From assembly GCA_015065445.1 (NCBI GenBank), contig SVQF01000001.1, positions 37,199 to 101,198 of the forward strand: a DNA stretch of 64,000 nucleotides. The letters are read 5' to 3'. The stretch is from Oscillospiraceae bacterium (GTDB taxonomy: Bacteria; Bacillota; Clostridia; Oscillospirales; Acutalibacteraceae). The translations under genes and the position numbers were made by a program. Position 1 is the first letter of the stretch. Every line of letters begins with the position of its first letter. The notes beneath the pieces were generated by a model. It was given only the letters and a program-made list of their open reading frames with translations, searched no databases and was not told the origin of the DNA. Shown one piece after another: positions 1,137-46,549 of the stretch.

Positions 1137-1517
1137 ATGCAAGTACAAGTTAATAAAGAGTTTCGTGATTACAGCGAATCTATATTCTTTGGGCTGAACT
1201 TGCGTCAGCTCATTTTTTCTGCCCTTGCAATCGGTGTAGCAGTAGGTTCATACTTTCTGCTTCGTGACAGATTAAGCACGGAAACGCTTTCGTGGCTCTG
1301 TATTATTATGGCAGCACCTTTTGCAATACTCGGCTTTGTTAAGTACAACGGAATGACGGCTGAAAAGTTCGTTTGGGCATATATCAAGTCAGAATTTCTT
1401 ATGCCAACCGAACTCAAGTTTAAGGGCGAAAACAAATACTACACAATGCTTGAGGAAAGCAATAACAACACAGGAAAGAGAGGTAAGAAGAATGTTCACT
1501 CTAAGAAAAATTCTTAA
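1137..1517 (+). CDS. PrgI-family (VirB3-like) small membrane protein
   Basis: 126 aa with two TM helices. It sits immediately upstream of, and overlaps, the VirB4-like gene. The N-terminus MQVQVNKEFRDY..FFGLNLRQL is typical of the PrgI family. Confidence 0.65.
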   Translation: MQVQVNKEFRDYSESIFFGLNLRQLIFSALAIGVAVGSYFLLRDRLSTETLSWLCIIMAAPFAILGFVKYNGMTAEKFVWAYIKSEFLMPTELKFKGENKYYTMLEESNNNTGKRGKKNVHSKKNS

Positions 1518-3848: not shown

Positions 3849-4559
3849 ATGAAAAAGACATTAAAGATTATAGTGTTGTTTGTCCTTCTCGGACTGTTTG
3901 CCTTCTGTATGGCAAAGATAGCAACACCGCATATTGAAAGTGAAATACAGGAACAGAAATTTGAGGTTCTTACAGAAAAAACAAAAGACACCGAAAATCC
4001 ACTTGATATGTACCTGGAATTACAGGCACAAAACGAAGACTTTTTCGGTTGGATTAAGATTGATGGAACTCACATTGATTATCCCGTTATGCGAAATTGT
4101 AATGATTTCTATTTACGCCACAATTTTCAAAAAGAGTATTCCAAAAGCGGAACTCCGTATATTTCCGAAGGTAGCGAATACAACCGAGATAATATCATTA
4201 TCTACGGTCATAATATGAAAACCGACACAATGTTTCACGATTTAACAAAGTATGCAGATAAGGACTTTTGTGAAAAGCACAAGATTGTGCATTTTAATAC
4301 GCCTTTTGAGATTGTTGATTATGAGGTGGTGTACGCTTTCAAAACAGTTGCGTATTCAGAATATGGCTTTGATTACTATTCCTATGACGGCTTCTTAACG
4401 GAAGAACAGTTTAACAAATTCAATATTAACTGTGCTTCTTGTGCCCTGTATGATACGGGCAAATCTCTTGAATACGGCGACGAGCTTATTACCCTTTCAA
4501 CCTGTGAATATTCAAGGTACAATGGTCGTTTCGTAATTGTCGCAAGAAAAATGAGGTGA
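3849..4559 (+). CDS. srtB: Class B sortase
   Basis: N-terminal TM anchor, a YGHNMKTDTMFHDL His motif and a TLSTCEY catalytic Cys motif. Confidence 0.85.
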   Translation: MKKTLKIIVLFVLLGLFAFCMAKIATPHIESEIQEQKFEVLTEKTKDTENPLDMYLELQAQNEDFFGWIKIDGTHIDYPVMRNCNDFYLRHNFQKEYSKSGTPYISEGSEYNRDNIIIYGHNMKTDTMFHDLTKYADKDFCEKHKIVHFNTPFEIVDYEVVYAFKTVAYSEYGFDYYSYDGFLTEEQFNKFNINCASCALYDTGKSLEYGDELITLSTCEYSRYNGRFVIVARKMR

Positions 4560-4563
4560 TGTT

Positions 4564-4923
4564 GTGGAAAGATGGTTTACCCTTGAGCAAAGACGAAGGG
4601 TAAAGAAACTAATAACTCAAAAATGTGCGAACTATCAAGATAACAACTGTATTGCTCTTGATTACTATGACGGCTGTCCCTGCATACAGATGATTAACAA
4701 TAAACTGTACTGTAACTATTTCAGAAACGCTGTACTGCCTAATGACAGTTACCTTGAAAAAGAACTTACAGGAAGCATTAGTAGAGACAGATGTGTAATA
4801 TGCGGCAAAGTATTTAACAGGACAAATAACCGTCAGCGATATTGCTCGGATTGTGCTAAAAAAAGCAAAAGAGTTGTCAAGGCAAAAAGTGAGCGAAAAC
4901 GAAGACAAAAACGTGGGCTTTAA
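4564..4923 (+). CDS. Cysteine-rich VLP-type small protein
   Basis: 119 aa with many Cys pairs (CxxxxxxxC, CVICG, CSDC) and a basic tail. Proteins of this kind are common in Clostridial ICE transfer operons. GTG start. Confidence 0.55.
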   Translation: MERWFTLEQRRRVKKLITQKCANYQDNNCIALDYYDGCPCIQMINNKLYCNYFRNAVLPNDSYLEKELTGSISRDRCVICGKVFNRTNNRQRYCSDCAKKSKRVVKAKSERKRRQKRGL

Positions 4924-4927
4924 GAAA

Positions 4928-4970
4928 CCCCGAAACCCTTTATTTGTGCGGGTTTCGGGACTTTGATTTT
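4928..4970 (+). terminator. Intrinsic terminator-like hairpin
   Basis: ccccgaaaccc / gggtttcggg stem followed by a T-rich tract. Confidence 0.5.
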
Positions 4971-5040
4971 GAGGGGTATGTATAGTTTGTTGTCTTACCC
5001 TAAAAAACGGGTTCTAAAGGTCCACGCACGGAGGTGAAAA

Positions 5041-6798
5041 ATGGCAAAAGATATTAAGACTGTTGATGTTGTAAAGGATGGTATTAAAACCGTTGACAAG
5101 GCTTCCATTGGCGTTGAAAGGATTAAAGATACTACCATCAAGATTAAGAATGAGGGCAAGGATGCTGTGAAGTCCGAAGGACAGGAAAACATCAGTTCTT
5201 ATGCTTCATCAAAGGTGGAAACTGTCAGCGAGGGTGTAGCAATAGAAGCAGCTCATCAAACTAAGGAAGCAATCAAGAAAGCACCTGAACGCATCAAACG
5301 ATATAACAGCAGGCGTCAAATCGCCCATGAAAAGTACGAGCTTCAAAAAGAAGTATTTGAAACAGAAAAAAAGGCTTTCAAGGAGGCAAGAGAAAATGTC
5401 AAGCAAGCCATTAAGACCGCTGATAGAACCGGTAATGATATCAAGAAAGCTACCAAGACGGCAAAGAAAGGCACAGAGAAAGTTGTCAAAGAAACCACTA
5501 TCAAAACGGCGCAGGCGGAAATTAAATCAGCAGAAGTCGGTACAAAAGCAACGATAAAAACTGCTGAAACTACTGCAAAAGGCACAGCAAAAGCAACAAA
5601 GGTTACTGTGGAAAGTGCAAAGAAGGCGGAGGTTGCTGCTCGTGAAACAATCAAGGCTTCTGCTGCGGCTCTCAAGGCTGCTATGAAAGCAGCTGTTGCC
5701 GCAGGAAAAGTAGCAGCAAAAGCAATAGAAGAATTGATTGCAGCCATTGCTGAAGGAGGTTGGGTAGTTTTACTTGTAATCGCCGTTGTTGCCTTAATTG
5801 CAGGTATTGTTGCTTCAACATACGGTATTTTCTTTTCTTCTGAGGACTCAGGAACAGGTATTACAATGTCAAGCGTTGTTCAGGAACTCAATATGGAGTT
5901 TCTTGATACTGTTGATGCGGAGAAAAACAAAGGCACCTATGACGAAGTATATATAACGGGTAGTCAAGCAAATTGGAAAGACATTATTGCTATTTATGCA
6001 ATTAAGACCAACACGGATGCTGACAACCCGCAAGAGATAGCAACGATTGATGAAAACAAAAAAGGTATCATATCCGACATCTTTTGGGATATGAATACCA
6101 TAACTACTCAAACTGAAACAAAAACAGAAGAAAAGGTTGAAACAACCACTGATGAAGAAGGTAATGAGGTTGAAACCGTAACAACGATAACTAAAACTTA
6201 TCTTACAATAACCATATCATCAAAATCTGCTGAAGATATGATACAGGAATACGGTTTTACTGATGAACAAAAAGCGTTTTTCTACGATTTAACCGATTCT
6301 AAAAACGACAAGCTATGGAACGGACTTATCTTTGGTATGAACTCGCTCCAGACAGTTGATATATCTGCAATTACCTTTACAAATGAGGAAGCAGGAGAAG
6401 TTCAAAAGAAGGTCGTGTCTATTGCAATCAATTCTTCACAGTACGGCGTTCCGGCTAACAAAGGCTATTGTCAGGCTTGGGTTGCCGATGTGCTTCAAAT
6501 TGCAGTCGGTACAAGAGGACACGCTGCCTCTGCAGTTGATGCAGGAAGAAAGTGGAGCGTATCAAAAGACTGGTCGCAAATTCAAGTTGGTGCAGCAGTT
6601 TACGGATATTCCTCATCACAATGGGGACACGTTGGAATCTATATAGGCGACGGTATGGTGGCTCACAATATCGGTGGAGTCAAAATCGAATCGCTTTCCG
6701 ATTGGGTTAGCACATACAAAGGTGTATGTTGGGGTTGGGAGCAAGGTATAAACCTTTCGGGCAACCCGGAATACGACTCTATTGGTGGCTTAATGTAA
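5041..6798 (+). CDS. T4SS-associated cell-wall hydrolase with a C-terminal CHAP/NlpC-P60-like domain
   Basis: The N-terminal region is Lys/Ala/Thr-rich and coiled-coil-like, followed by one TM helix. The C-terminus has GYCQAWV (Cys) and GHVGIYIGDGMVAHN (His) motifs. Confidence 0.75.
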   Translation: MAKDIKTVDVVKDGIKTVDKASIGVERIKDTTIKIKNEGKDAVKSEGQENISSYASSKVETVSEGVAIEAAHQTKEAIKKAPERIKRYNSRRQIAHEKYELQKEVFETEKKAFKEARENVKQAIKTADRTGNDIKKATKTAKKGTEKVVKETTIKTAQAEIKSAEVGTKATIKTAETTAKGTAKATKVTVESAKKAEVAARETIKASAAALKAAMKAAVAAGKVAAKAIEELIAAIAEGGWVVLLVIAVVALIAGIVASTYGIFFSSEDSGTGITMSSVVQELNMEFLDTVDAEKNKGTYDEVYITGSQANWKDIIAIYAIKTNTDADNPQEIATIDENKKGIISDIFWDMNTITTQTETKTEEKVETTTDEEGNEVETVTTITKTYLTITISSKSAEDMIQEYGFTDEQKAFFYDLTDSKNDKLWNGLIFGMNSLQTVDISAITFTNEEAGEVQKKVVSIAINSSQYGVPANKGYCQAWVADVLQIAVGTRGHAASAVDAGRKWSVSKDWSQIQVGAAVYGYSSSQWGHVGIYIGDGMVAHNIGGVKIESLSDWVSTYKGVCWGWEQGINLSGNPEYDSIGGLM

Positions 6799-9543: not shown

Positions 9544-11232
9544 ATGGCACATATAACAGGTTTTGAAAGTCTTGAAAAGATAAAGAAAATATATCCGTGC
9601 TTTGATTTGACAACAAGAAAGTTTTCCAATATCAAAGGGACAAAATTTCACGGTGGAATACCGCTTTTATATGATTCGGAAACAAAACGTTTATACATTG
9701 ATGCAAGCGATACGCACAGTTTGGTTTACGGCTCTACAGGTTCTTTGAAAACAAGAGCGATAGTATCTCCAGGTATAAAAGTACTGGGCTATGCCGGAGA
9801 GTCAATGATCATAAATGATCCTAAAGGAGAACTTTTTGCTCGACATGCCGGAGATTTGAAAAAGCAAGGATATAACATAGTTGAGATCAATTTTCGTGAC
9901 CCAAGTGTAGGAAATTCGTGGAATCCTCTTTACATTCCTTATCAGTTTTATATAAACGGCGATATTGATAAATCAGCGGAATTCATTAACGATATTTCAA
10001 ATAATTTAATGGTCAGCGACCGCTCCACTGACGATCCTTTTTGGGATTTTTCAGCGTCTGACCTTCTTTACGGCTTAATTCAACTCTTGTTTAGATATTG
10101 TAAAGATCATGATGCGCCTATCAACGCAGTAAATATTGGAAACCTCATAGCGTTACGAAGAGCGCTTTTCTCAGGTAAACAGCAAGCACAGAACACAGTT
10201 CTATGGAAATATGCCTCAGAAGATGAGCTCGTGGCAGCAAGCCTGTCTGGAAGTGTCTATGCACCGAGAGATACAATGAACAGTATTTTAAGCGTTTTTG
10301 ATCAAAAAATGCGCTCATTTACTATTCAACCGACACTGTTAGACATGCTTGCAAATAACGATTTTGATATTGCAGGCATTGGCAAGACAAAAACCGCCGT
10401 CTTTCTAATTACACCGGATGAAAAGACAAGCTATCATCGACTTGTTTCGATGTTTGTAAAAGAGAGTTATGAATATTTAATATATTTGGCAACACAGACG
10501 GAGGACAATAAGGTTGAAAACCGAATCAACTACATTTTAGATGAGTTTTCTTCTCTTCCGCAGATTGCAGATATGCCTTCAATGATAAGCGCTGCAAGAA
10601 GTCGTGATATTAGGTTTTTACTTGTTGTACAAAGCCAGTCCTCGCTCAAACAACGCTATTCTGAGGAAGCGGAGACAATAATTTCCAACTGTACTAATTG
10701 GATTTTCTTTACAAGCCGTGAATTAAGCCTGCTCAAGGAAATCTCCGAATTATGTGGAACACAAAAAAATCAAATGCCAAATATCAGCGTATATGATTTA
10801 CAGCATTTAAACAAAGAAAGACGTGAAGCGTTGATTCTGTCCGGGCGGCTTAAACCTGCCAAAGTTAATATGCTTGACATTGACAAATTCGGCGATCGAA
10901 CATATACACTTCTTTCTCACGAGCATCGCGAACGGCTAAACAGAGAAAAATTGACATTCGAGTTGAGGGAAGATATTAAAAGCAAGTATATTTCACAAAT
11001 GCCAACCAATCCGTTTCTAGATGGCAATCCCTTTAGTAGTATGTCAACGGATGATTTACATGAAAATACTTCTAAGCCAAAAAACAGTGATGTAGAAGTA
11101 GATGATATACTTAAACGAATTGATCAACGCATTGCAGAACTCGAAAAAGAGGAAGCCGAAGAACAGGAAGGTAAGGATTCACCAGATACTACTGACAGTC
11201 CTGAATCAAATAACGATAAGAAAGGAGAATAG
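9544..11232 (+). CDS. Soluble VirD4/TraG-family NTPase (no N-terminal TM anchor), paralogue 1
   Basis: P-loop-like GSTGSLKTR, then WNPL, Walker B YILDEFSSLPQI and AARSRDIRFLLVVQSQSSLKQRY. The first 60 aa contain no hydrophobic helix. The C-terminal tail is acidic. Confidence 0.85.
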   Translation: MAHITGFESLEKIKKIYPCFDLTTRKFSNIKGTKFHGGIPLLYDSETKRLYIDASDTHSLVYGSTGSLKTRAIVSPGIKVLGYAGESMIINDPKGELFARHAGDLKKQGYNIVEINFRDPSVGNSWNPLYIPYQFYINGDIDKSAEFINDISNNLMVSDRSTDDPFWDFSASDLLYGLIQLLFRYCKDHDAPINAVNIGNLIALRRALFSGKQQAQNTVLWKYASEDELVAASLSGSVYAPRDTMNSILSVFDQKMRSFTIQPTLLDMLANNDFDIAGIGKTKTAVFLITPDEKTSYHRLVSMFVKESYEYLIYLATQTEDNKVENRINYILDEFSSLPQIADMPSMISAARSRDIRFLLVVQSQSSLKQRYSEEAETIISNCTNWIFFTSRELSLLKEISELCGTQKNQMPNISVYDLQHLNKERREALILSGRLKPAKVNMLDIDKFGDRTYTLLSHEHRERLNREKLTFELREDIKSKYISQMPTNPFLDGNPFSSMSTDDLHENTSKPKNSDVEVDDILKRIDQRIAELEKEEAEEQEGKDSPDTTDSPESNNDKKGE

Positions 11233-13189: not shown

Positions 13190-13735
13190 ATGTCTACTAT
13201 TACTAAAAAATGGGATGAAAAGAAAATTCGCGACATTATCCGTGCACTTGATGAAAAAACCGGACTTAATGGTGCTGCGTATCCCATTAGACTTACTGAG
13301 TACCAATCAGATGTTTTGAGTTGTTTAGGTTGCTTCATGGCCGTTGGTAAAAATAAAGGATTTAAGTTTGCCATTGATTATTTTAACGATCCTTTTACCA
13401 AAGAAGCTGAAGTGATAGATATAATCCGTCATGAGTATGCACATTATTATACTGATACTGTACAACTTTATAGATATATTAATTATTCACATAGCGAACG
13501 TTCACACGGAGATGCATGGAAATGGGCATGCATAATGGTCGGAGCAGAACCCAAGCGTTACCATGATGTGGAATCGTTCAAGGATAAAAACTGGTCCATT
13601 GATGAAGCAAAAGCTGCGTATAGAGCCGATGACGTGCCTGAATTTAATATACGCAGGGCTATTAGATTCGGAGGGTCGTTAACAACTAATGCAAAGAAAT
13701 TATCTTGGATTTTATTAAATGATAAAATGGGTTGA
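13190..13735 (+). CDS. SprT-like zinc metalloprotease, ending at an in-frame TGA
   Basis: HEYAH (HExxH) followed by SHGDAWKWAC, which matches the SprT pattern HExxH...HGxxWK. TGA at 13733-13735 is followed in the same frame by 67 sense codons (see findings). Confidence 0.75.
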   Translation: MSTITKKWDEKKIRDIIRALDEKTGLNGAAYPIRLTEYQSDVLSCLGCFMAVGKNKGFKFAIDYFNDPFTKEAEVIDIIRHEYAHYYTDTVQLYRYINYSHSERSHGDAWKWACIMVGAEPKRYHDVESFKDKNWSIDEAKAAYRADDVPEFNIRRAIRFGGSLTTNAKKLSWILLNDKMG

Positions 13736-14045: not shown

Positions 14046-14651
14046 ATGAAAAGAATGAACAAATATGAATTTAAAGCGACCAATCTTATTGCAGAGGTTT
14101 TTGAAGAGCATGGAGTAAAGTTTGATGTGAAAAATGCACATGGGTTTGAAACTATTGTAGCCGGATTTCCCATTGATGGTGGACCTCTTATTACCGAAGA
14201 ATTCATTAGTAATAGTAATGATAATGATGTAGCAGTAAGAGTTTTTCGCATTGTAACAAACACTCCTGAAGCCAGGAGAACCCGTGCAATGGAGGCGTGT
14301 AATATCTTAAACAAAGAGGTGCGTTGTTTAGAATTTACCATTGATGATGATGGTGACGTTAATGCTTCATATGACTTTTTGAACAGCACTCCCGATGAAG
14401 CAGTGGGAGAAATGGCTCTTGAAATATTTGTACGAACAATGAAAATTCTTGATGACCGATTTTGTGTATTGATGAAGGCAATTTACACAAACGAAGAACT
14501 CAATCAAGAAGAGAAGAAACGCAAACTGGAACTTCTTCGCAGATTTCAGGCTGCTCTTAAGGAGGCAGAGGACAGGAATGACGATGGAGAAGCTAACGAC
14601 GAAGAGCTTGACAATTTCGCCTCGTGGTTAGCTGACGAAGTTGCTAGTTAA
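14046..14651 (+). CDS. YbjN-like (secretion-chaperone-fold) protein with an acidic C-terminus
   Basis: 201 aa. The alternating strand/helix pattern (..FDVKNAHGFETIVAGFPIDGG.., ..FTIDDDGDVNASYDF..) resembles YbjN-family proteins. Confidence 0.5.
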   Translation: MKRMNKYEFKATNLIAEVFEEHGVKFDVKNAHGFETIVAGFPIDGGPLITEEFISNSNDNDVAVRVFRIVTNTPEARRTRAMEACNILNKEVRCLEFTIDDDGDVNASYDFLNSTPDEAVGEMALEIFVRTMKILDDRFCVLMKAIYTNEELNQEEKKRKLELLRRFQAALKEAEDRNDDGEANDEELDNFASWLADEVAS

Positions 14652-14662
14652 ACAGCATAAAA

Positions 14663-14734
14663 TTCCCGCCCGATGAGGTTAGTTGGCGTCTAACCGAAAC
14701 TATGGCAGTATTATTGCTGTCATGGTCGCGGGGA
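14663..14734 (+). ncRNA. Type I hammerhead ribozyme (core CCGAUGA ... GAAA ... GUC)
   Basis: Stem I is 14663-14669 paired with 14728-14734. The core is 14670-14676. Stem II is 14677-14682 paired with 14690-14695. GAA is at 14696-14698. Stem III is 14699-14708 paired with 14717-14726. C17 is at 14727. The only deviation from consensus is C instead of U at core position 4. Confidence 0.7.
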
Positions 14735-14775
14735 GCCATCCGCTTAATAAATAATGTAAATAGGAGGTATTGACA

Positions 14776-15495
14776 ATGTCAAACTACAACTATGGCGATT
14801 ACGAAGAAGTCGCTCCCGAAAACATCAATGAATCTCATATGCCTGTTTTAATCGCAGGTGATATTTCAGGAAGCATGGCGGGTTTACCTATTCAAAATGT
14901 TAACAAGTCAATCAACCGCTTCTCCAGTGATGTTTGTAAGGATTCAAAAGCAGCAGCAAGGGTCGATGTTGCAGTGATTGGATTTAACGATGCTCCTCAT
15001 ATCGAGCAAAATTGGCGACCAATTACTGAAATGAACCCCGTAGAATTCACTGCTGGAGGTGGCACTAACATTTCTGCAGCTCTTGAGAAAGGTGTAAATA
15101 TGCTTCGCGATAGAGGTCACCTTTATGAAGATGTTGGCATCGATGTAAAAATGCCTTATCTAATTCTTATTACTGATGGTTATGGCGGTGATGTTACCGA
15201 GATAGCTGAAGTTATCAAGCAGCGCACGGCTGACCGTAAAATGAAGCTGTGGGTTCTTGCAGTTAAGGGCTATGATAAAGCAACTGTCGCTCAGTTAACA
15301 GATGGTAAACGAGTATTTGAATTAGTTAATGAAGACGGATATGATTTTACTGAATTCTTTGACTTTATGGCAGTTAGTGTAAAAGCCGTTTCAACTAGCG
15401 CACCCGGTCAGGACACTGTTAACGTAAAATCAAACATTGGTCGAGATGGTTCTAATTGTCGTGTTCCCGACCTTGATGCATGGCTTAATGATTGA
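14776..15495 (+). CDS. vWA-domain protein (TerY-like), TerY-P triad component
   Basis: MIDAS motif DISGSM near the N-terminus and ILITDG later on. ATG 14776 follows AGGAGG. Confidence 0.85.
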   Translation: MSNYNYGDYEEVAPENINESHMPVLIAGDISGSMAGLPIQNVNKSINRFSSDVCKDSKAAARVDVAVIGFNDAPHIEQNWRPITEMNPVEFTAGGGTNISAALEKGVNMLRDRGHLYEDVGIDVKMPYLILITDGYGGDVTEIAEVIKQRTADRKMKLWVLAVKGYDKATVAQLTDGKRVFELVNEDGYDFTEFFDFMAVSVKAVSTSAPGQDTVNVKSNIGRDGSNCRVPDLDAWLND

Positions 15496-15560: not shown

Positions 15561-16667
15561 ATGATTATTTATAAAAGTAACATGGCCGGTCCATACCATA
15601 TTGAAAATGGGCTGCCTTGTCAGGACTCATATGCGGTCCTTCAAAGTGAGAACTTTTGCGTTTTAGCTGTAACTGATGGTTTAGGAAGTGAATTATATTC
15701 TGATATTGGTGCTTCCGAGGCCGCTAGTTCCGCTGTCAATTATTGCTCAGAGAATTTATCCGTTAATATGGCTTTTGAGGACATTAAAAAAGTTATGAAC
15801 AATGCCCTTGTATGTGCATATAAAGCTGTACTTGAAAGAGCTGCGTGTGATAATAATGACCCAGATGAATACGATACAACCATGTGTTTGGCTGTTTATG
15901 ACGGTGAACACCTGTACTATGCGCAATCGGGTGACAGCGGGCTTATAGCATTACTGCAAAACGGAGAATACTACCGAGTTACATCTCAACAGCGAGATGA
16001 TGAAGGAAGGGTGTATCCACTGTGTTGGGGTCCGGATAAATGGGAATTTGGATGTGTTAAGTCACCCGTTTCTGCTTTTATGCTGATGACTGACGGAGTC
16101 TTTGAACAGATGTGTCCCCCGATTATGCGAAATCGCGATATTGATATCAATGTTCCTCTTGCCAGAAAGTTTATGGATCACTTTAATGCAACTGAAAATG
16201 ATATATTTGATATTGAAAAGTGGGCACATGAATACCTTGAACACTATCCGAGATATCTTCTTGATGACGATAAAACTATACTTGTGCTAATTAACACCGA
16301 GCGAAAGCCTAAAGAAATGGATGAAGCTTATTATGCAATTCCCGATTGGGAATCCATGAAAACTGAGGCTTTAGAAAAACTATATAACAATTCCGAGGAA
16401 CCTGATAATCAGGATGGTGAAAGAATTGATTCAAATAGTACATCGATAGAGTCAGAAATGTATATTAGCAAAGACGATGAAACATTAACCGACAAGAAAC
16501 CCATTTCAAAAAACAGAATAGAAGCACAAAACAGTGTTGCGAATAATAGCATTGGTGAAAAAATATCAGACGCACAAAATCAATATGATTCTCAGAAAAC
16601 GGGTGATACTGAAACAGCACATTCTTCAGCTATAAATGACGTAAAAAAAAACGACTGTTCAACATAA
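15561..16667 (+). CDS. PP2C-family protein phosphatase, TerY-P triad component
   Basis: CQDSY..AVTDGLGS..GDSG..LMTDGV motifs, with a low-complexity C-terminal extension. Confidence 0.8.
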   Translation: MIIYKSNMAGPYHIENGLPCQDSYAVLQSENFCVLAVTDGLGSELYSDIGASEAASSAVNYCSENLSVNMAFEDIKKVMNNALVCAYKAVLERAACDNNDPDEYDTTMCLAVYDGEHLYYAQSGDSGLIALLQNGEYYRVTSQQRDDEGRVYPLCWGPDKWEFGCVKSPVSAFMLMTDGVFEQMCPPIMRNRDIDINVPLARKFMDHFNATENDIFDIEKWAHEYLEHYPRYLLDDDKTILVLINTERKPKEMDEAYYAIPDWESMKTEALEKLYNNSEEPDNQDGERIDSNSTSIESEMYISKDDETLTDKKPISKNRIEAQNSVANNSIGEKISDAQNQYDSQKTGDTETAHSSAINDVKKNDCST

Positions 16668-16723: not shown

Positions 16724-17185
16724 GTGTCATGGCTCTTAAAGTCAGTCATTCAAAAGCATGTGGCAGTTAGTGCTATAGGCATAATGTTAGTGTGTTTCTT
16801 TGCAAATGCATCTGTCCTGCTGCCATCTTCAAGCATTTTCATTGTGGTTGAATACTCTATGATAATTAATCCACTTCTTGTAGCGCTTTGCGGAGCAATC
16901 GGCTCATCACTTGGAGAACTAACAGGATTCTATTTAGGAAGATGTGGAACATCTGTCATTCCAAAAAAAATCACAATATGGATACAAGAAAAGATGTCAT
17001 GTCATAAATACTTAGTTGTGTTTTTATTCTCTGTGTTGCCTTTGCCAATTTTTGATATAGTCGGAATTCTTTCAGGGGCGACAAAAATGAATGCTTTGAA
17101 GTTTTTAGGAATATGTTTCGTCGGAAAACTGATCAAGATGTTATGTTATGTTTGGTTGATGCACGAAATGGTGCTATTTGTTTAA
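16724..17185 (+). CDS. Small DedA/VTT-like polytopic membrane protein
   Basis: 153 aa with four hydrophobic helices. GSSLGELTGFYLGR resembles the VTT/YqaA motif. GTG start. Confidence 0.5.
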   Translation: MSWLLKSVIQKHVAVSAIGIMLVCFFANASVLLPSSSIFIVVEYSMIINPLLVALCGAIGSSLGELTGFYLGRCGTSVIPKKITIWIQEKMSCHKYLVVFLFSVLPLPIFDIVGILSGATKMNALKFLGICFVGKLIKMLCYVWLMHEMVLFV

Positions 17186-17198
17186 AAAGGAGGAATCA

Positions 17199-18785
17199 AT
17201 GATGAATACGGTTGATTATGCCTATACAAAAGGAAAAACAAAACTTAAGCTTTCCTTTTTAGGCTCGGGAGGAGAAGGTTCAGTTTATGAAATTGTTGGA
17301 TACCCTAACCGAGTTGCAAAGATCTATCATGACGAATCGAACTTTCAAAAAAAAGAACGGGAAGCCAAAATAAATGCCATGGTGGCAATCAGCCAAAACT
17401 TTAATTTTAAAAGTGCAAGCCTTTCTAACGATATAGCTTGGCCATTGGCTCCTCTCTATGATGTCAATGGAAATTTTATTGGTTTTGGAATGGATCGAAT
17501 TCCAGCTACAACCGAACTTGATGACTTATATGTTTATCCTACAAAAAACAATGCAACTGTAACAATTAAGGATCGAGTTACATGTTTAATTAGTCTTTGT
17601 GATGTTATTGAAAGACTGCATAAGATTGATCAGGTATTTGGAGACTTTAATCCAAATAATATCAAAATCAAATCCGATTGGACAGTGAGTTTTGTTGATG
17701 CTGACTCATACCATGTAAATAATAAAGGGAATGTGTACCGATGTGTTGTTTGTGCACCCGGATATGTAGCTCCAGAGGTGATACGTGCTTGTAAAGGCAC
17801 AACTTATGCACAGTGCAAGTATACAACGTTTACAAAAGAAACCGACCGTTTTGCACTTGCTATTCACATCTTTAGAATGCTGATGAACGGATGTCACCCG
17901 TTTACCTGCGAAAGACATGTAACGCGAGTCGGTTCAGCACCTGCACCTAAGTCAACTGACAAGAGGGTAGAAACTGGAGAAACTCCATTTTTCAAATCTG
18001 TTCCAAACTGTGTTGCACCTCAATATGCACCTGACATTAACTCACTTCCATTATATCTTAGAGATTTATTTAGAAAGGCGTTTATTGAGGGACATACTGA
18101 ACCATCTAAAAGACCTTCTGCTTCTGAATGGAAAAGAGCGTTAATTAAATACAATTCTGAATTAATTGAATGTAAGAGCAATCATTTGCACTTTTATTGG
18201 AAGGGAGACCATTCTTGTCCATATTGCGAAGCTGATCGCAGATACAATCAAAAAATCGGTCTCGTCCCTGCAAAGAGTATATCAAAAAAGACGATTATTA
18301 ATACAAACAACTGTACACAATCTTCAAAAAACAAAACCAATACTAATAGCACTTACAAATCAAAGAAGGTTGCATCAACTGCCACGGCTGTTTCATCTCG
18401 AACAAATCGCTTGAACTCGGGGCTTTTTTGGAGCATTACACTCACAATCACTATAATCATGCAGGTGTTATTAGGGCTGTATGCACTACCAGAAATCTAT
18501 AGTGAAGTATTTGATAATGAGACGATAGCAATAATTGGGGTTATAGGCAGTTTGGTGTCAGGCATAGTTGGTTCAATACTATTCAATTGTCTATGGGCCC
18601 CGGGTAAGTATAAAGGCTCGTATTCATGGTGGGAATATCTCTTATCAGTTTTAACTGCATTTGGGTTCACCGTTGGATTTGGTGTTGTTATGGGGTTAGT
18701 AATTCTTATCGCAATTGCCTTGTTTTATTTGTTGGTTGGTGCTGCAATCATTGCAATAATTATAGGCATACTTTCAGGAGGTTAA
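17199..18785 (+). CDS. Ser/Thr protein kinase with zinc ribbon and C-terminal multi-TM domain, TerY-P triad component
   Basis: Gly-loop GSGGEGSVYE, Lys in VAKIYH, catalytic GDFNPNNIKI, VDADS, and YVAPEV. CPYC follows, then an S/T/N-rich linker and about four TM helices. Confidence 0.8.
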   Translation: MMNTVDYAYTKGKTKLKLSFLGSGGEGSVYEIVGYPNRVAKIYHDESNFQKKEREAKINAMVAISQNFNFKSASLSNDIAWPLAPLYDVNGNFIGFGMDRIPATTELDDLYVYPTKNNATVTIKDRVTCLISLCDVIERLHKIDQVFGDFNPNNIKIKSDWTVSFVDADSYHVNNKGNVYRCVVCAPGYVAPEVIRACKGTTYAQCKYTTFTKETDRFALAIHIFRMLMNGCHPFTCERHVTRVGSAPAPKSTDKRVETGETPFFKSVPNCVAPQYAPDINSLPLYLRDLFRKAFIEGHTEPSKRPSASEWKRALIKYNSELIECKSNHLHFYWKGDHSCPYCEADRRYNQKIGLVPAKSISKKTIINTNNCTQSSKNKTNTNSTYKSKKVASTATAVSSRTNRLNSGLFWSITLTITIIMQVLLGLYALPEIYSEVFDNETIAIIGVIGSLVSGIVGSILFNCLWAPGKYKGSYSWWEYLLSVLTAFGFTVGFGVVMGLVILIAIALFYLLVGAAIIAIIIGILSGG

Positions 18786-19824: not shown

Positions 19825-21144
19825 ATGATTATTCGTAAAACAATGCTATATGGTAATTCCGTGAACGATAACGCTTTAACTGCACTTTGCTCTAAACCAC
19901 TAATTATTATCCCGGGTGTTACAAATGGGAAACAAACCTTTGTTGGATTCACTGAAGACACGCTCCATATGCATACTCTATTTATGGGCGGAACAGGTTC
20001 CGGAAAAACGAATACATTCTGTCATCTTATACCGCAGTTGCAAAGAAAAATGACAAACAATGATGTCATGTTGGTATTTGATTCTAAACAAGATTTTGAG
20101 CAATTTCACAGAGAAGATGATTATGTAATCAGCTATCGAGCTCAGAGTAAAGGTGAAAAAGAAACCTGGAACCTGTTTCGTGATGTTATAGCAGACGGAT
20201 GGGAAAAAGAAAGTATCATTATGAATGCAGATGAAATAGCGGACGTTATTTTTTCAAAGGCAATAAACGAGAGTTCCCAACCGTTCTTTCCAAGAGCCGC
20301 AAAAGATATCTTTGCCGCAATCATTAAGGGAATGTGTTTCATTGGAATCACCGACAAAGATTACAGAATTAATTATATGAATAACAAAGCTCTAATTAAG
20401 TATCTTACAGCTTTAAATGCAGAAAAACTGCATGCATTTTTAACAAATATACCAGAACTTGCAGGTGTGCTTAAGTATATAGGTAATGGAAAATCAGAGC
20501 AAGCCCTTGGAGTATTTGCGGAACTCCAATCTGTAGTTGGACACATCTTTACAAGAAATTTTGCTGAAGATGGTCGTTTTTCAATAAGGAAAACGGTTCA
20601 ACAAAAAAATGGTCGTACGCTATTTATAGAATATGATCCTTCAAGAGGAGTGTCTTTGCGCCCAATATATCAGTTGCTTGTTGACCTGTTTTTAAAAGAA
20701 GCCTTAACTCCAAAAGACGGTACAAAAGGTAATGTATTCGTTATTTGTGATGAACTGAAAATGCTTCCCTTTCTTAATCATCTTGAAGATGCACTAAATT
20801 TTGGTAGATCGCTTGGGGTTTCAGTTATTGCCGGCATTCAGAGTATGGAACAATTATATGAAGTATATGGAGAATACGGTGGCAAAAACATTGCTTCCGC
20901 GTTTCAGACGGTATTTTGTTTTCATACAAATGACGTTGCTTCTCGGCAGTACATAAAAGGAATGTTTGGAGAAAACAAATCGGTTATTCAATATATGACG
21001 CCTTCTGGAAAAACCATTGAAGAACAACACAGTGGATATAGTGTTGAAGATTGGGATATAACGAACCTAAATAAAGGAGAGGCCATAGTCGGCATGCCAT
21101 ATCAATTGCCATTTAAGATTAAAATAAAAAAATATGGAGGATAG
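19825..21144 (+). CDS. Soluble TraD/VirD4-like P-loop NTPase, paralogue 2
   Basis: Walker A GGTGSGKT, Walker B VFVICDELKML, and SVIAGIQSMEQL. No TM helix. Confidence 0.75.
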   Translation: MIIRKTMLYGNSVNDNALTALCSKPLIIIPGVTNGKQTFVGFTEDTLHMHTLFMGGTGSGKTNTFCHLIPQLQRKMTNNDVMLVFDSKQDFEQFHREDDYVISYRAQSKGEKETWNLFRDVIADGWEKESIIMNADEIADVIFSKAINESSQPFFPRAAKDIFAAIIKGMCFIGITDKDYRINYMNNKALIKYLTALNAEKLHAFLTNIPELAGVLKYIGNGKSEQALGVFAELQSVVGHIFTRNFAEDGRFSIRKTVQQKNGRTLFIEYDPSRGVSLRPIYQLLVDLFLKEALTPKDGTKGNVFVICDELKMLPFLNHLEDALNFGRSLGVSVIAGIQSMEQLYEVYGEYGGKNIASAFQTVFCFHTNDVASRQYIKGMFGENKSVIQYMTPSGKTIEEQHSGYSVEDWDITNLNKGEAIVGMPYQLPFKIKIKKYGG

Positions 21145-24604: not shown

Positions 24605-25378
24605 ATGATTCGTGATATTAAGGAACCTGCAGGACTTGACTCTGTTAAATGCACCGTTAAAAACATCTGTAGCGAAGCCGCAAAATATAGATTCCGCCAT
24701 CCTGCAAGCATGATTATTTATCTTAATGAAAAGCAAGGGCGCAGCACCGTTGCTGAATATATCACAGATATGTTCTTTGTTCACAAGGTAATGGATTTTT
24801 CAATGTCCAGAAGTGAGTTTATTGAGCTTGATTTCAATGGAGAGTATAAACAATTCAATGACTGCATGAAACAAGTTAACGATGCAGCCGATTATACAAA
24901 CGATGACAAATATTCAAATGTTCTCGTTGAAACAGGCATCAACAACCTTTCTAAGCATCTCGGCGAACAGCACGTTGATGATTATTTAAATCATGTTGAA
25001 ACAATGTCTAAAACTGCTGTACTTGTGATTTTTGTTAGCGAAAACCCTAATTCAAAAGAAAGTCAGCTCATAGATAGAATTAAAGAAGTACTTCCTTTTG
25101 CCAATATAATCAAGCCACATGAATATAGTGTGGAAGATTATTGCAAAGTCATAAAGGAAAAACTTTGCGATTATGGCGTTATTGTTCCTAAAAACACACC
25201 GTTAAATGAGATCGTAAAGAAATCAATGAATAAAGATAAGTCTTTCAATATGAAAGATGCATGCTTAATTGCCGAGGAACTATTTCTTGGTTCAAAACTA
25301 GTAAATGGGAAACTGAAGGTTGATGTTTCAGCAATTAATTCGCCCAAAACAGACAGGGTAATAGGAGGAAAATCATGA
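24605..25378 (+). CDS. Hypothetical protein, module C
   Basis: 257-aa ORF with an AAGGAGG ribosome-binding site. Its stop overlaps the next start (ATGA). Confidence 0.6.
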   Translation: MIRDIKEPAGLDSVKCTVKNICSEAAKYRFRHPASMIIYLNEKQGRSTVAEYITDMFFVHKVMDFSMSRSEFIELDFNGEYKQFNDCMKQVNDAADYTNDDKYSNVLVETGINNLSKHLGEQHVDDYLNHVETMSKTAVLVIFVSENPNSKESQLIDRIKEVLPFANIIKPHEYSVEDYCKVIKEKLCDYGVIVPKNTPLNEIVKKSMNKDKSFNMKDACLIAEELFLGSKLVNGKLKVDVSAINSPKTDRVIGGKS

Positions 25379-26979
25379 GCAGATATGAAAGGTTCTCTGA
25401 AGAGAAAGAGCTAAATAAAAACTTTCCATTAGCGGGTAAAGGGGTAAGCGGATTACCCGTTTACTATGATAAGAAACGACAGCTACACTGTGATCCGGGA
25501 CCAGCGCATGCACTTATTACAGCTACAACTGGCTATGGTAAAACATATGGTGTATCATTATCAGCTATCATGAGATGTATTGAGGCAACTGAAAGCTTTG
25601 TTGTTATTGATTCAAAGAAAGATGCACTTAGGCACACATTTAATGCCGTTCCGGAAAATTATCAAAAATTTGTTTTCGATTTTAGCAAGCCTGCCGAATC
25701 TCCTGACAAGTGGAATCCGCTTGAATTAATTCGTGTTCAATTAACCTCATCCGATATTACAGAACAGGACCTTGGATACGAAAATCTTAATGCGTTCACA
25801 GTTGGCTTGCCCGATAAAGATAAGGATTCATTTTGGCCAAATAGTTCCACAGAATTATTAACTGGAACTGCAGAAGCGTTAATTGAATCATCAAACGATC
25901 CTCGCGAGGTTCACATGGGGAGTATTTGCAGAATTCTTAGGGACGGCAACGAAAGATTTGGCGGAAATATTCTTCTTAAAAGTTTTTATGACTCGTTGTC
26001 CGATGATTCACTTGCGAAGCAACATCTTGGTACTTTTGTGAATGCTCCAAATGATACTAGAAACTCTATCTATGCTGTAACTTCAACAGCTTTATCGGTG
26101 TTCACAAGAAGCAGAGGCTTATTGCAAATGATTTCTCAAGATACAATTGACATTGCTCACCTTGATAATAGCGAGTCTCCAGTTGCCATTTATATATGTT
26201 TACCTGATGAAAACAATGTACATGCGAAATTGGCGGGGTGTTTAATTCAACAATTATCGCAGCAATTTATTAAATTAGCTCGTTCTCAGCCTGATGGAAA
26301 GCTGAAAAATCGAATTAGCTTTATTTTAGAGGAATTAGGTTCTATTGGAGGTTCAATTCCAAATTTAGCAAACCTCATGACAGCCGGTCGCTCTCGAGGA
26401 ATAAGAATGGTCCTTATATTGCAGAGTTTATCTCAACTTGATGCTATCTATGGTGAATCTGCAGAAGCAATTAAAAACTGTATCGGTATTACATATAGTT
26501 TTTCAAACAACAACTTAGATACGCTTAAAGAATTCAGCGAAAAATGCGGTTATTGTAATGACAAAGATTTGTTAATAACTCCTACACAGCTTTCAGCAAT
26601 GCCTCCTCTACAGTGCCTTGTTATTCTTTACAACAGATATAAATTCATCAGTAAATTTGAATTCTTTACTGATGTCTATAAAGTGGAAGAATATACTCCG
26701 TCAGGTCAAGAAAGAGAAAAAATTGAAAAAGCAGTTAATTCAATTAAGTATTTCAATATTAAGGAGTATGTAAAAAAAGCAAGGGAGAGAGCGCAAGTGG
26801 AAGCAATAAGAAAGAATAACGAGTTAAATCCATTTGCACAGCCGCACAGTCTTCCCTCTTCTTGTCCTAGCGATCCAATAATGCCTGATGATATAGACAT
26901 AGAGGAGTTAGTGAAAAAAATAGATGAGGAAATCGCCAAAAGAGAAAGAGAAATTGAAAGTGAGAGAAATGATGAATAG
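25375..26979 (+). CDS. Soluble VirD4/TraG-family NTPase, paralogue 3
   Basis: Walker A ATTGYGKT, then WNPL, FILEELGSIG and TAGRSRGIRMVLILQSLSQLDAIYG. No TM anchor. The acidic C-terminal tail resembles that of the 9544 protein. Confidence 0.85.
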   Translation: MSRYERFSEEKELNKNFPLAGKGVSGLPVYYDKKRQLHCDPGPAHALITATTGYGKTYGVSLSAIMRCIEATESFVVIDSKKDALRHTFNAVPENYQKFVFDFSKPAESPDKWNPLELIRVQLTSSDITEQDLGYENLNAFTVGLPDKDKDSFWPNSSTELLTGTAEALIESSNDPREVHMGSICRILRDGNERFGGNILLKSFYDSLSDDSLAKQHLGTFVNAPNDTRNSIYAVTSTALSVFTRSRGLLQMISQDTIDIAHLDNSESPVAIYICLPDENNVHAKLAGCLIQQLSQQFIKLARSQPDGKLKNRISFILEELGSIGGSIPNLANLMTAGRSRGIRMVLILQSLSQLDAIYGESAEAIKNCIGITYSFSNNNLDTLKEFSEKCGYCNDKDLLITPTQLSAMPPLQCLVILYNRYKFISKFEFFTDVYKVEEYTPSGQEREKIEKAVNSIKYFNIKEYVKKARERAQVEAIRKNNELNPFAQPHSLPSSCPSDPIMPDDIDIEELVKKIDEEIAKREREIESERNDE

Positions 26980-46284: not shown

Positions 46285-46500
46285 CGAGCCACTTTAGGGG
46301 TACGCCAAGACCTTCCGTAAGGAAGCGAGCGAGAAAACCTGCTATAACCACAGGATTGCCTCCTGTGTTGGCGATGACAGTCGAACTGATAATGATACTT
46401 CTGCTATGACAGTAGCTTCGGGCGACGGAGAGGTGAAATTCCTATGATGCGTAAAAGCAGTACGCAGGCTGATGAACTCCTTTCACACGGGGTGCGTGGC
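46285..46500. ncRNA. GC-rich non-coding segment with multiple hairpins (unclassified candidate structured RNA or small insertion)
   Basis: No ORF is present. Local hairpins include cttcc-GTAA-ggaag, cacagg/cctgtg and tgcgta/tacgca. The segment is flanked by AAATAGTG at 46277-46284 and 46501-46508. Strand is undetermined. Confidence 0.35.
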
Positions 46501-46549
46501 AAATAGTGTGATTACATATAAATGAAACACTTTGAAAGGATTAATGATT

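What the first reader, a model, noticed from the sequence alone, without database searches (positions are those of the whole stretch)
14663..14734. Near-canonical type I hammerhead ribozyme inside a defence operon, predicted to cut the mRNA just upstream of the vWA-PP2C-kinase genes
The following can be read directly from the + strand. Stem I has 7 bp (14663-14669 with 14728-14734). The core is C-C-G-A-U-G-A (14670-14676). Stem II has 6 bp closed by G10.1-C11.1, with a 7-nt loop (14677-14695). G12-A13-A14 are at 14696-14698. Stem III has 10 bp and opens with A15.1-U16.1 (14699-14726). The cleavage triplet is GUC, with C17 at 14727. The only departure from the consensus CUGANGA is C at position 4. 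The element lies 12 nt after the YbjN-like stop codon and 42 nt before the vWA ATG. Self-cleavage would therefore separate the SprT/YbjN transcript from the TerY-P triad transcript and leave a 5'-OH leader on the latter. Bacterial hammerheads are mostly known from prophage and mobile contexts. A ribozyme embedded in a TerY-P locus suggests post-transcriptional uncoupling or stoichiometry control of a defence system.
Basis: partly seen in the sequence, partly recalled or inferred. Interest (0 to 1): 0.8.

Follow-up and report, generated by a model that had tools for sequence, protein, structure and literature searches.

The report
Hammerhead ribozyme between two conjugative-element genes
The flagged 72 bases are a real member of a widespread bacterial family of self-cutting hammerhead RNAs that sit between genes of mobile elements; this copy carries a rare but recurring C at core position 4, and it follows the upstream YbjN-like gene rather than belonging to any defence system.

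Summary
Window 14663-14734 (+) folds as a type I hammerhead with stems of 7, 6 and 10-12 bp. Every core base is canonical except C at position 4. The cleavage triplet is GUC, with C17 at 14727.

Rfam gives only a sub-threshold match (RAGATH-1-hammerhead, 30.2 bits against a cut-off of 56.3). Comparative evidence is strong, however:
- I collected about 57 distinct relatives from Clostridia conjugative-element contigs and IMG/VR contigs.
- All three stems and the pseudoknot covary.
- A covariance model built without the window sequence finds this site alone in the 64 kb (66.4 bits, E about 2e-17).
- Position 4 is U in 51 members and C in 6, from at least five separate origins. C3, G5, A6, G8 and A9 never vary.

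The element follows YbjN-like genes, with a median gap of 14 nt after the stop codon. The genes downstream vary, and most vWA-PP2C-kinase loci lack the element.

It is most likely an intercistronic self-cleaving ribozyme of the kind described by Perreault et al. 2011, and a new member of a known kind. Cleavage itself is untested. The "defence operon" framing is not supported.

The parts
14046..14651 (+). Upstream cistron: YbjN-like gene (201 aa). After cleavage its mRNA would keep almost the whole ribozyme at its 3' end.
   Evidence: Pfam YbjN PF10722, E 1.7e-06, 28.7 bits against a cut-off of 22. In relatives the hammerhead most often follows a YbjN-like gene.
14642..14657 (+). Weak 4-bp hairpin (UGCU/AGCA) that overlaps the YbjN stop codon. 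The 5' hairpin of the Rfam RAGATH-1-hammerhead model aligned here. Probably not part of the ribozyme.
   Evidence: Alignment to RF03152 and fold of 14641-14727. The 5' flanks of relatives show no such hairpin.
14663..14669 (+). Stem I, 5' strand (UUCCCGC). The inner 5 bp (14665-14669) are the part conserved in the family.
   Evidence: Stem I pairs covary: AU/GC/GU at column pairs 20:98 and 20:121.
14670..14676 (+). Core strand C3-C4-G5-A6-U7-G8-A9. Position 4 is C instead of the consensus U.
   Evidence: Family census: C3, G5, A6, G8 and A9 are invariant in 57 members; position 4 is U in 51 and C in 6.
14677..14695 (+). Stem II (GGUUAG/CUAACC, 6 bp, G10.1-C11.1) with the 7-nt loop UUGGCGU.
   Evidence: Compensatory changes occur in 4 of 6 pairs and 5 of 6 pairs.
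14684..14687 (+). Pseudoknot, 5' half (UGGC, inside loop II).
   Evidence: The pair C14687-G14735 corresponds to column pair 42:104 (CG 14, UA 2, UG 2) and 43:127 (CG 22, UA 16, UG 2, one unpaired).
14696..14698 (+). G12-A13-A14 of the core.
   Evidence: The Clostridia set was gathered without a DNA pattern that fixes these bases. There they are invariant apart from one decayed-looking copy with G12 changed to A (L017/L020).
14699..14726 (+). Stem III, 10-12 bp, opening with A15.1-U16.1; loop UUAU to UAUUAUUG.
   Evidence: Compensatory changes occur in 8 of 11 pairs and 9 of 11 pairs.
14727..14728 (+). Predicted cleavage site: C17 (14727) | G1.1 (14728). Hammerhead chemistry would leave a 2',3'-cyclic phosphate on the upstream fragment and a 5'-OH on the downstream one.
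   Evidence: The position follows from the hammerhead architecture. C17 is invariant in the family. The chemistry is established knowledge of the class and was not tested here.
14728..14734 (+). Stem I, 3' strand (GCGGGGA). It would become the 5' end of the downstream fragment.
   Evidence: After cleavage it can instead pair with UCCGC 14739-14743.
14735..14738 (+). Pseudoknot, 3' half (GCCA), immediately after stem I.
14763..15495 (+). Downstream cistron: Shine-Dalgarno AGGAGG (14763-14768) and the vWA gene (ATG 14776, 239 aa). PP2C (15561-16667), VTT/DedA (16724-17185) and the kinase (17178-18785) follow.
   Evidence: Pfam. Full-length homologues of 239 aa confirm the ATG at 14776. Nucleotide similarity to other vWA loci starts only at the Shine-Dalgarno sequence.

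Best explanation
Window 14663-14738 is a functional, or recently functional, type I hammerhead self-cleaving ribozyme. It belongs to a large bacterial lineage with three defining traits: a 5-bp conserved stem I (CCCRC/GYGGG), a loop II carrying GG[C/U], and a 3-4 bp pseudoknot from that loop to the [G/A]CC(A) that directly follows stem I.

It lies in the polycistronic plus-strand transcript of a conjugative element, 11 nt after the YbjN-like stop codon.

Inferred mechanism: as the 3' strand of stem I emerges from the polymerase, the junction folds and the pseudoknot docks stems I and II. The RNA then cleaves between C14727 and G14728.
- The SprT/YbjN part of the message ends in a compact structured ribozyme with a 2',3'-cyclic phosphate.
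- The vWA-PP2C-VTT-kinase part starts with a 5'-OH and a 35-nt leader before its Shine-Dalgarno sequence.
- The two halves can then have different stabilities and outputs.

The U4-to-C change probably slows cleavage rather than abolishing it.

Shown here: the structure, family membership, covariation, placement, and recurrence of C4. Inferred: cleavage itself, its rate, and the fate of the two fragments.
For: - Sequence and MFE fold.
- Leave-one-out covariance model: 66.4 bits, E about 2e-17, the only hit in 64 kb.
- Covariation in the Clostridia conjugative-locus set: 18 distinct sequences, 91.6% of cells paired, 16 of 28 pairs with changes on both sides, 0 of 500 shuffles as high, and slid controls far lower.
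- Covariation in an independently gathered IMG/VR set: 42 distinct sequences, 87.1% paired, 21 of 28 pairs with changes on both sides. The pseudoknot pair reads CG 22, UA 16, UG 2.
- Core census: C3, G5, A6, G8 and A9 are invariant in 57 members. Position 4 is U in 51 and C in 6.
- Five of the six C4 copies have a U4 copy as nearest relative, so C4 arose at least five times.
- C4 copies keep intact stems and pseudoknot. Decayed-looking copies (L017/L020, L024, third copy of L040) show other defects, such as G12 to A, G10.1 to A and stem I mismatches.
- Placement: a median of 14 nt after an upstream co-directional stop codon, and within 30 nt in 39 of 55 cases.
- No plus-strand promoter-like or terminator-like site in the spacer.
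- Several copies often flank single genes: L012 has 2, L022 has 3, L092 and L085 have 4 each.
- Related contigs also carry pistol and twister-sister ribozymes above Rfam thresholds.
- Literature: clustered hammerheads flank genes in prophages, and tandem Clostridium scindens hammerheads cleave during in vitro transcription. About 40% of hammerheads use a stem I/II pseudoknot. A U4C viroid variant is weakened in vitro yet sufficient in vivo (PMC3088659).
Against: - No Rfam hammerhead family reaches its threshold. The best is RF03152 at 30.2 bits against a cut-off of 56.3; RF00163 and RF00008 give nothing. Canonical-core relatives are missed as well, so this reflects the models more than the element.
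- U4 belongs to the CUGA U-turn. Single and double mutants of that motif had low activity in a deep mutational scan of a type III hammerhead (PMC9901934). U4C 'considerably decreases activity in vitro' (PMC3088659).
- In a longer context, the 3' strand of stem I can pair with 14739-14743 instead of the 5' strand. That competing fold is the MFE for 14655-14800.
- There are no cleavage or transcript data.
- The covariation alignments were fitted to the model structure, and the sequences are related to one another.
Confidence: 0.7

Rival explanations
1. Inactive relic. The element descends from an active hammerhead, but the U4-to-C change has destroyed the U-turn. It survives only because it is recent or because its hairpins are harmless.
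For: U-turn mutants have low activity (PMC9901934). U4C strongly reduces in vitro activity (PMC3088659). Clearly decayed copies of the same family exist in related loci (L017/L020 with G12 to A; L024 and L040c with G10.1 to A). A locus whose YbjN is 98% identical lacks the element altogether (L049), so it is dispensable.
Against: The window copy has perfect stems, all other core bases, and a 4-bp pseudoknot. C4 occurs in 6 of 57 members from at least five origins. None of C3, G5, A6, G8 or A9 ever varies, which is not the pattern of random decay. One C4 copy is identical in three separate contigs (L082, L093, L100).
Confidence: 0.2
2. A structured intercistronic RNA that works without self-cleavage. 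Examples would be a 3'-end stabiliser, an RNase or protein recognition site, or a repeat serving as a recombination junction between gene cassettes.
For: Similarity to other loci breaks exactly at both edges of the element: at the YbjN stop codon against L049, and at the Shine-Dalgarno sequence against L056, L001 and L055. In L012 two copies flank an inserted 68-aa ORF.
Against: The conserved unpaired bases are exactly the hammerhead catalytic core and cleavage triplet. A mere hairpin element or recombination site would have no reason to keep them. The pseudoknot matches a known activity-enhancing hammerhead feature. A cassette-junction role could also exist alongside cleavage.
Confidence: 0.06
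3. A member of the RAGATH-1 hammerhead family (RF03152), the only Rfam family that responds.
For: RF03152 matches 14641-14732 over the full model: 30.2 bits, E 0.0017 in a 201-nt search. The match includes a 5' hairpin and the AUAAAAU linker.
Against: The score is far below the 56.3-bit cut-off. In the whole-window search the match does not appear even at E up to 5. The model has a 1-bp stem II, whereas this element has 6 bp plus a loop II to 3'-tail pseudoknot. The 5' hairpin has only 4 weak pairs, overlaps the stop codon, and is absent from all relatives.
Confidence: 0.03
4. Chance resemblance to the hammerhead consensus in an AT-rich spacer.
For: The hammerhead motif is simple and occurs by chance in large databases (PMC3088659).
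Against: Leave-one-out model E about 2e-17. About 57 homologues with covariation. Conserved placement.
Confidence: 0.01

Closest known systems
Clustered bacterial hammerhead ribozymes of prophages and mobile elements (Perreault et al. 2011, PMC3088659), including the tandem Clostridium scindens hammerheads
   Same: Canonical three-stem core. A pseudoknot holds stems I and II together. The elements sit in short spacers between co-directional genes of a mobile element, and several copies flank single genes whose identity is not constant. Related contigs also hold other self-cleaving classes (pistol, twister-sister). Core variants occur, including an extra base after A6; the paper reports an 'A6a' insertion with low activity.
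   Different: This lineage had not, to my knowledge, been tied to the 3' end of YbjN-like genes in Clostridia conjugative elements. The window copy carries C4. The paper mentions C4 only for a viroid variant and for an Aedes construct named cCgauga in its primer table. I could not retrieve the C. scindens sequence to test direct homology; its primers do not match any locus held here.
RAGATH-1 hammerhead (Rfam RF03152)
   Same: Type I topology, the same core and GUC site, a long stem III, and an A-rich linker before stem I. It is the best-scoring Rfam family.
   Different: The model has a 1-bp stem II and a 5' accessory hairpin. The window element has a 6-bp stem II and a loop II to 3'-tail pseudoknot. 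Its score of 30.2 bits is far below the 56.3-bit cut-off.
Viroid hammerhead with the natural U4C change (Ambros and Flores 1998, as cited in PMC3088659)
   Same: The same single core substitution. It shows that C4 can be biologically sufficient when tertiary contacts support the core.
   Different: That case is a plant viroid RNA replicating by rolling circle, with different tertiary contacts. Here the RNA is a bacterial mRNA spacer.
Rfam Hammerhead_1 (RF00163) and Hammerhead_3 (RF00008)
   Same: The same ribozyme class and core.
   Different: Neither model reports this element or its canonical-core relatives, even at permissive E-values. This bacterial lineage is effectively outside those models.

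Membership tests
Hammerhead ribozyme, type I | Three helices around one junction, with the open ends in stem I. The order is stem I 5' strand, CUGANGA, stem II, GAA, stem III, H17, stem I 3' strand. | tested here: met
   Read from the sequence. The unconstrained MFE fold gives the same junction.
Hammerhead ribozyme, type I | Invariant core bases C3, G5, A6, G8, A9, G12, A13, A14, A15.1-U16.1, G10.1-C11.1, and a non-G at position 17. | tested here: met
   All are present at 14670-14677, 14695-14699 and 14726-14727. They are also conserved across the family.
Hammerhead ribozyme, type I | U at position 4 (the U-turn). | tested here: not met
   C at 14671. The same change occurs in 6 of 57 family members from at least five origins. 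It is a known natural variant in a viroid (PMC3088659). So it argues for reduced rate rather than exclusion from the class.
Hammerhead ribozyme, type I | Stems supported by compensatory changes in homologues. | tested here: met
   16 of 28 pairs and 21 of 28 pairs have changes on both sides. None of 500 shuffles reaches the observed values, and slid controls are much lower.
Hammerhead ribozyme, type I | [quoted passage not shown] | tested here: met
   14684-14687 pairs with 14735-14738. The covarying pair reads CG 22, UA 16, UG 2 and CG 14, UA 2, UG 2.
Hammerhead ribozyme, type I | Score at or above the curated threshold of an Rfam hammerhead model. | tested here: not met
   Nothing reaches a gathering score. 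RF00163 and RF00008 give no match at E up to 10 in a 201-nt search. Canonical relatives are missed too.
Hammerhead ribozyme, type I | Mg2+-dependent site-specific self-cleavage. | not testable with these tools
   Needs in vitro transcription and cleavage assays, or in vivo end mapping.
RAGATH-1 hammerhead (RF03152) | Score of at least 56.3 bits, a 1-bp stem II, and a conserved 5' accessory hairpin. | tested here: not met
   30.2 bits. Stem II has 6 bp. The 5' hairpin is weak and not conserved in relatives.
TerY-P triad (vWA + PP2C phosphatase + Ser/Thr kinase) | The three domains encoded by adjacent genes. | tested here: met
   VWA (E 1.1e-06), PP2C_2 (E 2e-25) and Pkinase (E 1.2e-08), with a VTT/DedA gene inserted between them.
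Known anti-phage defence system (the 'defence operon' claim) | Proteins match models of known or candidate defence systems. | tested here: not met
   PADLOC gives no hit for the vWA, PP2C, VTT, YbjN or SprT proteins. The kinase gives only weak matches to PD-T4-6 and similar models (E 8.7e-07 and weaker, under 27 bits).

The most novel reading that the evidence does not exclude
In Clostridia conjugative elements these hammerheads may act as portable punctuation for cargo cassettes. On this reading each cargo gene travels with its own roughly 75-nt ribozyme. The conserved sequence doubles as a homologous-recombination junction for swapping cargo downstream of the YbjN-like gene. The weakened U-turn tunes the system: C4 and the extra base after A6 both affect the U4 to A6/N7-phosphate contact, so cleavage becomes slow or conditional. 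It might, for example, depend on ribosomes terminating 7-19 nt upstream, and so set the ratio of upstream to cargo expression.
Probability: 0.15. Interest if true: 0.6.

Novelty: new member of a known kind. Interest (0 to 1): 0.4.

Why it matters
The element gives a concrete, testable ribozyme in an otherwise unannotated spacer. It also exposes a sizeable bacterial hammerhead lineage that the current Rfam models do not report, even at permissive E-values.

Why self-cleaving ribozymes cluster between genes of bacterial mobile elements is still an open question (PMC6765202). This lineage offers a clean system for it: a fixed upstream partner (YbjN-like), interchangeable downstream cargo, natural one-, two- and three-copy arrangements, and natural core variants (U4, C4, and an extra base after A6) in the same scaffold.

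The recurrent C4 disagrees with mutagenesis data that call the U-turn intolerant. Measuring these natural variants would show how far tertiary contacts can buffer the core.

The finding does not bear on how the vWA-PP2C-kinase triad works.

Tried and rejected
- Rfam at gathering thresholds on the window found only pemK RNA. The permissive whole-window scan found no ribozyme.
- RAGATH-1 membership was rejected on score and architecture.
- I looked for a second copy in the window with the family model and filters off. There was none; the next hit scored 14.4 bits and looked like junk.
- My first strict descriptor missed relatives because most have a bulged base in stem II. A relaxed descriptor and the covariance model fixed this.
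- A vWA-based search of IMG/VR found nothing.
- BLAST of the element against GenBank phages and PLSDB plasmids found nothing. Neither did the YbjN protein or the 3.7-kb region against plasmids.
- The C. scindens tandem-hammerhead primers from Perreault et al. match none of the loci held. Identity with that published example therefore could not be tested.
- The supplement of Weinberg et al. 2017, which describes RAGATH-1, and Ambros and Flores 1998 are not held.
- The idea that the element is tied to the vWA triad was rejected from the locus survey.
- A conserved 5'-terminal hairpin on the downstream cleavage product was considered. It forms in the window. In the IMG/VR set my search pattern fixes the bases involved, and in the Clostridia set it is not consistent, so I left it as a note.

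Full report
**Observation.** The sequence at 14663-14734 (+) is as described.
- Stem I is UUCCCGC/GCGGGGA, 7 bp.
- The core is CCGAUGA.
- Stem II is GGUUAG/CUAACC, with loop UUGGCGU.
- GAA follows, then a stem III of 10 bp that opens with A-U. The MFE fold extends it to 12 bp.
- The cleavage triplet is GUC, with C17 at 14727.
- The spacings are 11 nt from the YbjN stop codon and 41 nt to the vWA ATG at 14776.

An unconstrained fold of 14652-14745 returns exactly this junction (-35 kcal/mol, z = -2.86). The opposite strand is unremarkable.

**Rfam.** Nothing in the window reaches a hammerhead gathering score. In a 201-nt permissive search the only relevant match is RAGATH-1-hammerhead, RF03152 (30.2 bits, cut-off 56.3, E 0.0017). 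That model has a 1-bp stem II and a 5' accessory hairpin. The window element has a 6-bp stem II. The 'hairpin' that the model aligned (14642-14657) has four weak pairs across the YbjN stop codon and is absent from relatives. I do not file the element under RAGATH-1.

**Context.** The genes run on the plus strand through a conjugative-transfer array:
- a VirB4-like ATPase (1450-3816);
- an NlpC/P60 protein (5041-6798);
- three coupling-protein paralogues (9544-11232, 19825-21144, 25375-26979);
- then a TPR protein, SprT-like (13190-13735), YbjN-like (14046-14651), the element, vWA (14776-15495), PP2C, VTT/DedA and a kinase.

No plus-strand promoter-like or terminator-like site lies in the spacer. 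PADLOC has nothing for the vWA, PP2C, VTT, YbjN or SprT proteins, and only weak kinase-domain matches for the kinase. 'Defence operon' is therefore not established.

**Relatives found through the vWA protein.** I searched with the vWA protein and fetched 45 loci from genomes and metagenomes. Most have no hammerhead upstream of vWA.
- L001, L012, L017/L020 and L024 carry it directly after a YbjN-like gene.
- L012 has two copies, flanking an inserted 68-aa ORF.
- L022, L023 and L040 have three copies: one before their YbjN gene, one after it, and one after an 83-aa ORF.

**Relatives found through YbjN.** Searching with YbjN and fetching encoding contigs showed the element directly after YbjN with varied downstream genes:
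- vWA-PP2C-VTT-kinase (L055, L056);
- a ubiquitin-like repeat protein (L048, L050, L053), followed in L053 by ThiF/E1;
- an 83-aa gene followed by ClpP (L052).

L057 has no copy directly after YbjN. There the element lies further downstream, between an SH3 gene and the ubiquitin-like repeat gene.

Other YbjN loci lack it entirely: L049, L051, L060 and L064. L049 is one of these even though its YbjN is 98% identical to the window's.

Alignment shows that similarity to L049 stops at the stop codon. Similarity to the roughly 90%-identical vWA loci begins only at the Shine-Dalgarno sequence. The element is therefore a module of its own, not part of the triad.

**The family.** A covariance model built from 14 copies found 26 plus-strand hits in 460 kb of loci and one in the window. 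With filters off there is no second copy in the window.

A pattern taken only from the 3' half of the element retrieved 43 stretches from IMG/VR (CGAAAC...GTCRYGGGRARCCA). The model found 45 family matches in them, often several per contig.

The family shares a 5-bp stem I (CCCRC/GYGGG), a stem II whose loop contains GG[C/U], and [G/A]CC(A) immediately after stem I.

**Covariation.**
- Clostridia set: 18 distinct sequences, 91.6% of cells paired, 16 of 28 pairs with changes on both sides.
- IMG/VR set: 42 distinct sequences, 87.1% paired, 21 of 28 pairs with changes on both sides.
- In both sets none of 500 shuffles reaches the observed values, and slid controls are far lower.
- The loop II to 3'-tail pseudoknot is supported by C-G to U-A exchanges: CG 22, UA 16, UG 2. 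In the window it is U14684-G-G-C14687 with G14735-C-C-A14738.
- Caveats: the alignments were fitted to the model, the sequences are related, and the IMG/VR pattern fixed part of the tail.
- A model built without the window sequence still finds the window site alone (66.4 bits, E about 2e-17).

**The core, and C4.** Over 57 distinct members, C3, G5, A6, G8 and A9 never vary. N7 is U or C. Thirteen members have one extra base after A6 (CUGAAYGA). Position 4 is U in 51 and C in 6: the window, L052, L022b, L057, L082 and L113.
- Five of the six C4 copies have a U4 copy as nearest relative. L113 and L096 are 97% identical. C4 therefore arose repeatedly.
- C4 copies keep their stems and pseudoknot.
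- Copies that look decayed carry other lesions: G12 to A in L017/L020, and G10.1 to A plus stem I mismatches in L024 and L040c.
- This pattern argues that C4 is tolerated rather than a sign of decay.

Against that, U-turn mutants had low activity in a deep mutational scan (PMC9901934). Perreault et al. note that U4C considerably decreases activity in vitro, although a viroid carrying it stays infectious. They also report low activity for an insertion after A6, because the A6/N7 phosphate contacts U4 (PMC3088659). Both variants of this family thus touch the same contact. I infer a slower, not a dead, ribozyme.

**What is known.** Perreault et al. 2011 described hundreds of bacterial hammerheads near prophage and integrase genes, often several flanking single genes of varying identity. 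They showed that tandem Clostridium scindens, Azorhizobium and Agrobacterium arrangements cleave during transcription. About 40% of hammerheads use a stem I/II pseudoknot. A 2019 review states that the reason for these gene associations is still undetermined (PMC6765202).

In line with that picture, contigs holding this family also hold pistol (67.6 bits) and twister-sister (79.1 bits) ribozymes, and sub-threshold twister-P1 matches. Rfam's hammerhead models report none of the canonical-core members. The Rfam miss is therefore a property of the models, not of C4.

**Mechanism (inferred).** The element sits a median of 14 nt after a co-directional stop codon. In the type I topology almost the whole ribozyme stays on the upstream fragment.
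- Cleavage would leave the SprT/YbjN message with a structured end carrying a 2',3'-cyclic phosphate.
- The vWA message would carry a 5'-OH and a short leader.
- In Firmicutes a 5'-OH end is a substrate for RNase J1, as shown for the glmS ribozyme product. This is my own knowledge and was not tested here. Cleavage may therefore lower or uncouple cargo expression.
- The 3' strand of stem I can also pair with 14739-14743. That could trap the cleaved product or compete with the active fold.

**Verdict.** This is a real hammerhead of a known kind, newly placed, with a recurrent C4 core variant. The defence-specific interpretation is not supported.

Noticed in passing
window 46389-46447 (+): A pemK RNA (RF02913) scores 49.6 bits against a cut-off of 34.8 over the full model. 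It lies about 85 nt upstream of an ORF at 46532-47455. It is the only Rfam family above threshold in the window.
   Followed up: no
window 9544-11232, 19825-21144, 25375-26979 (+): Three paralogous type IV coupling proteins (T4SS-DNA_transf, TrwB and TraG-D_C domains) lie within 17 kb of one strand. A VirB4-like ATPase (1450-3816) and an NlpC/P60 protein (5041-6798) lie alongside. That is an unusual number for one conjugative element.
   Followed up: partly
L012 2554-2627 and 2884-2958; L022/L023/L040 1315-1375, 2221-2295, 2585-2659; L092 and L085 (four copies each): Several hammerhead copies bracket single small genes, including a 68-aa ORF, a YbjN gene and an 83-aa ORF. The arrangement looks like cassettes delimited by ribozymes.
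   Followed up: partly
L049 about 1955 compared with window 14651; L056, L001 and L055 compared with window about 14760: Similarity breakpoints fall exactly at the two edges of the hammerhead. A 98%-identical YbjN gene (L049) is followed by unrelated sequence from the stop codon on. The roughly 90%-identical vWA genes share sequence only from the Shine-Dalgarno sequence on.
   Followed up: partly
L113 5716-5795 and 7458-7524; L096 9441-9507; L083 582-661, 1696-1775, 3193-3247: Other self-cleaving ribozyme classes lie in the same IMG/VR contigs as this hammerhead family. Twister-sister scores 79.1 bits and pistol 67.6 bits, both above threshold. There are also sub-threshold twister-P1 and RAGATH-1-hammerhead matches.
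   Followed up: no
L022 1315-1375, L056 3125-3198, L096 10427-10525 and others: Canonical-core members of this hammerhead lineage are not reported by any Rfam hammerhead model, even at permissive E-values. Rfam-based annotation would miss the lineage.
   Followed up: partly
L017/L020 2871-2973; L024 2872-2974; L040 2571-2673: These copies look decayed. They show G12 to A, or G10.1 to A, together with stem I mismatches, directly upstream of vWA genes.
   Followed up: partly
L053 3250-5630, L057 3218-4565, L064-L073 about 4360-5594: Downstream of YbjN in other elements lie ubiquitin-like (Rad60-SLD, YukD or DUF2604-type) proteins with ThiF/E1. In L064-L073 there is also a UQ_con/E2-like gene and ClpP. 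These look like bacterial ubiquitin-like conjugation cassettes occupying the slot that vWA-PP2C-kinase fills in the window.
   Followed up: no
L012 64-951, L051 590-1477, L055 1-821: A gene that combines ASCH and PTS_2-RNA (Tpt1/KptA-type RNA 2'-phosphotransferase) domains recurs just upstream of the SprT-YbjN pair in related elements.
   Followed up: no
window 14728-14743 (+): The 3' strand of stem I (GCGGG) can pair with UCCGC at 14739-14743, forming a hairpin at the very 5' end of the predicted downstream product. In a longer context this competes with stem I in the MFE fold. Many relatives can form GUGG-GAAG-CCAC in the same place, but covariation could not be tested.
   Followed up: partly
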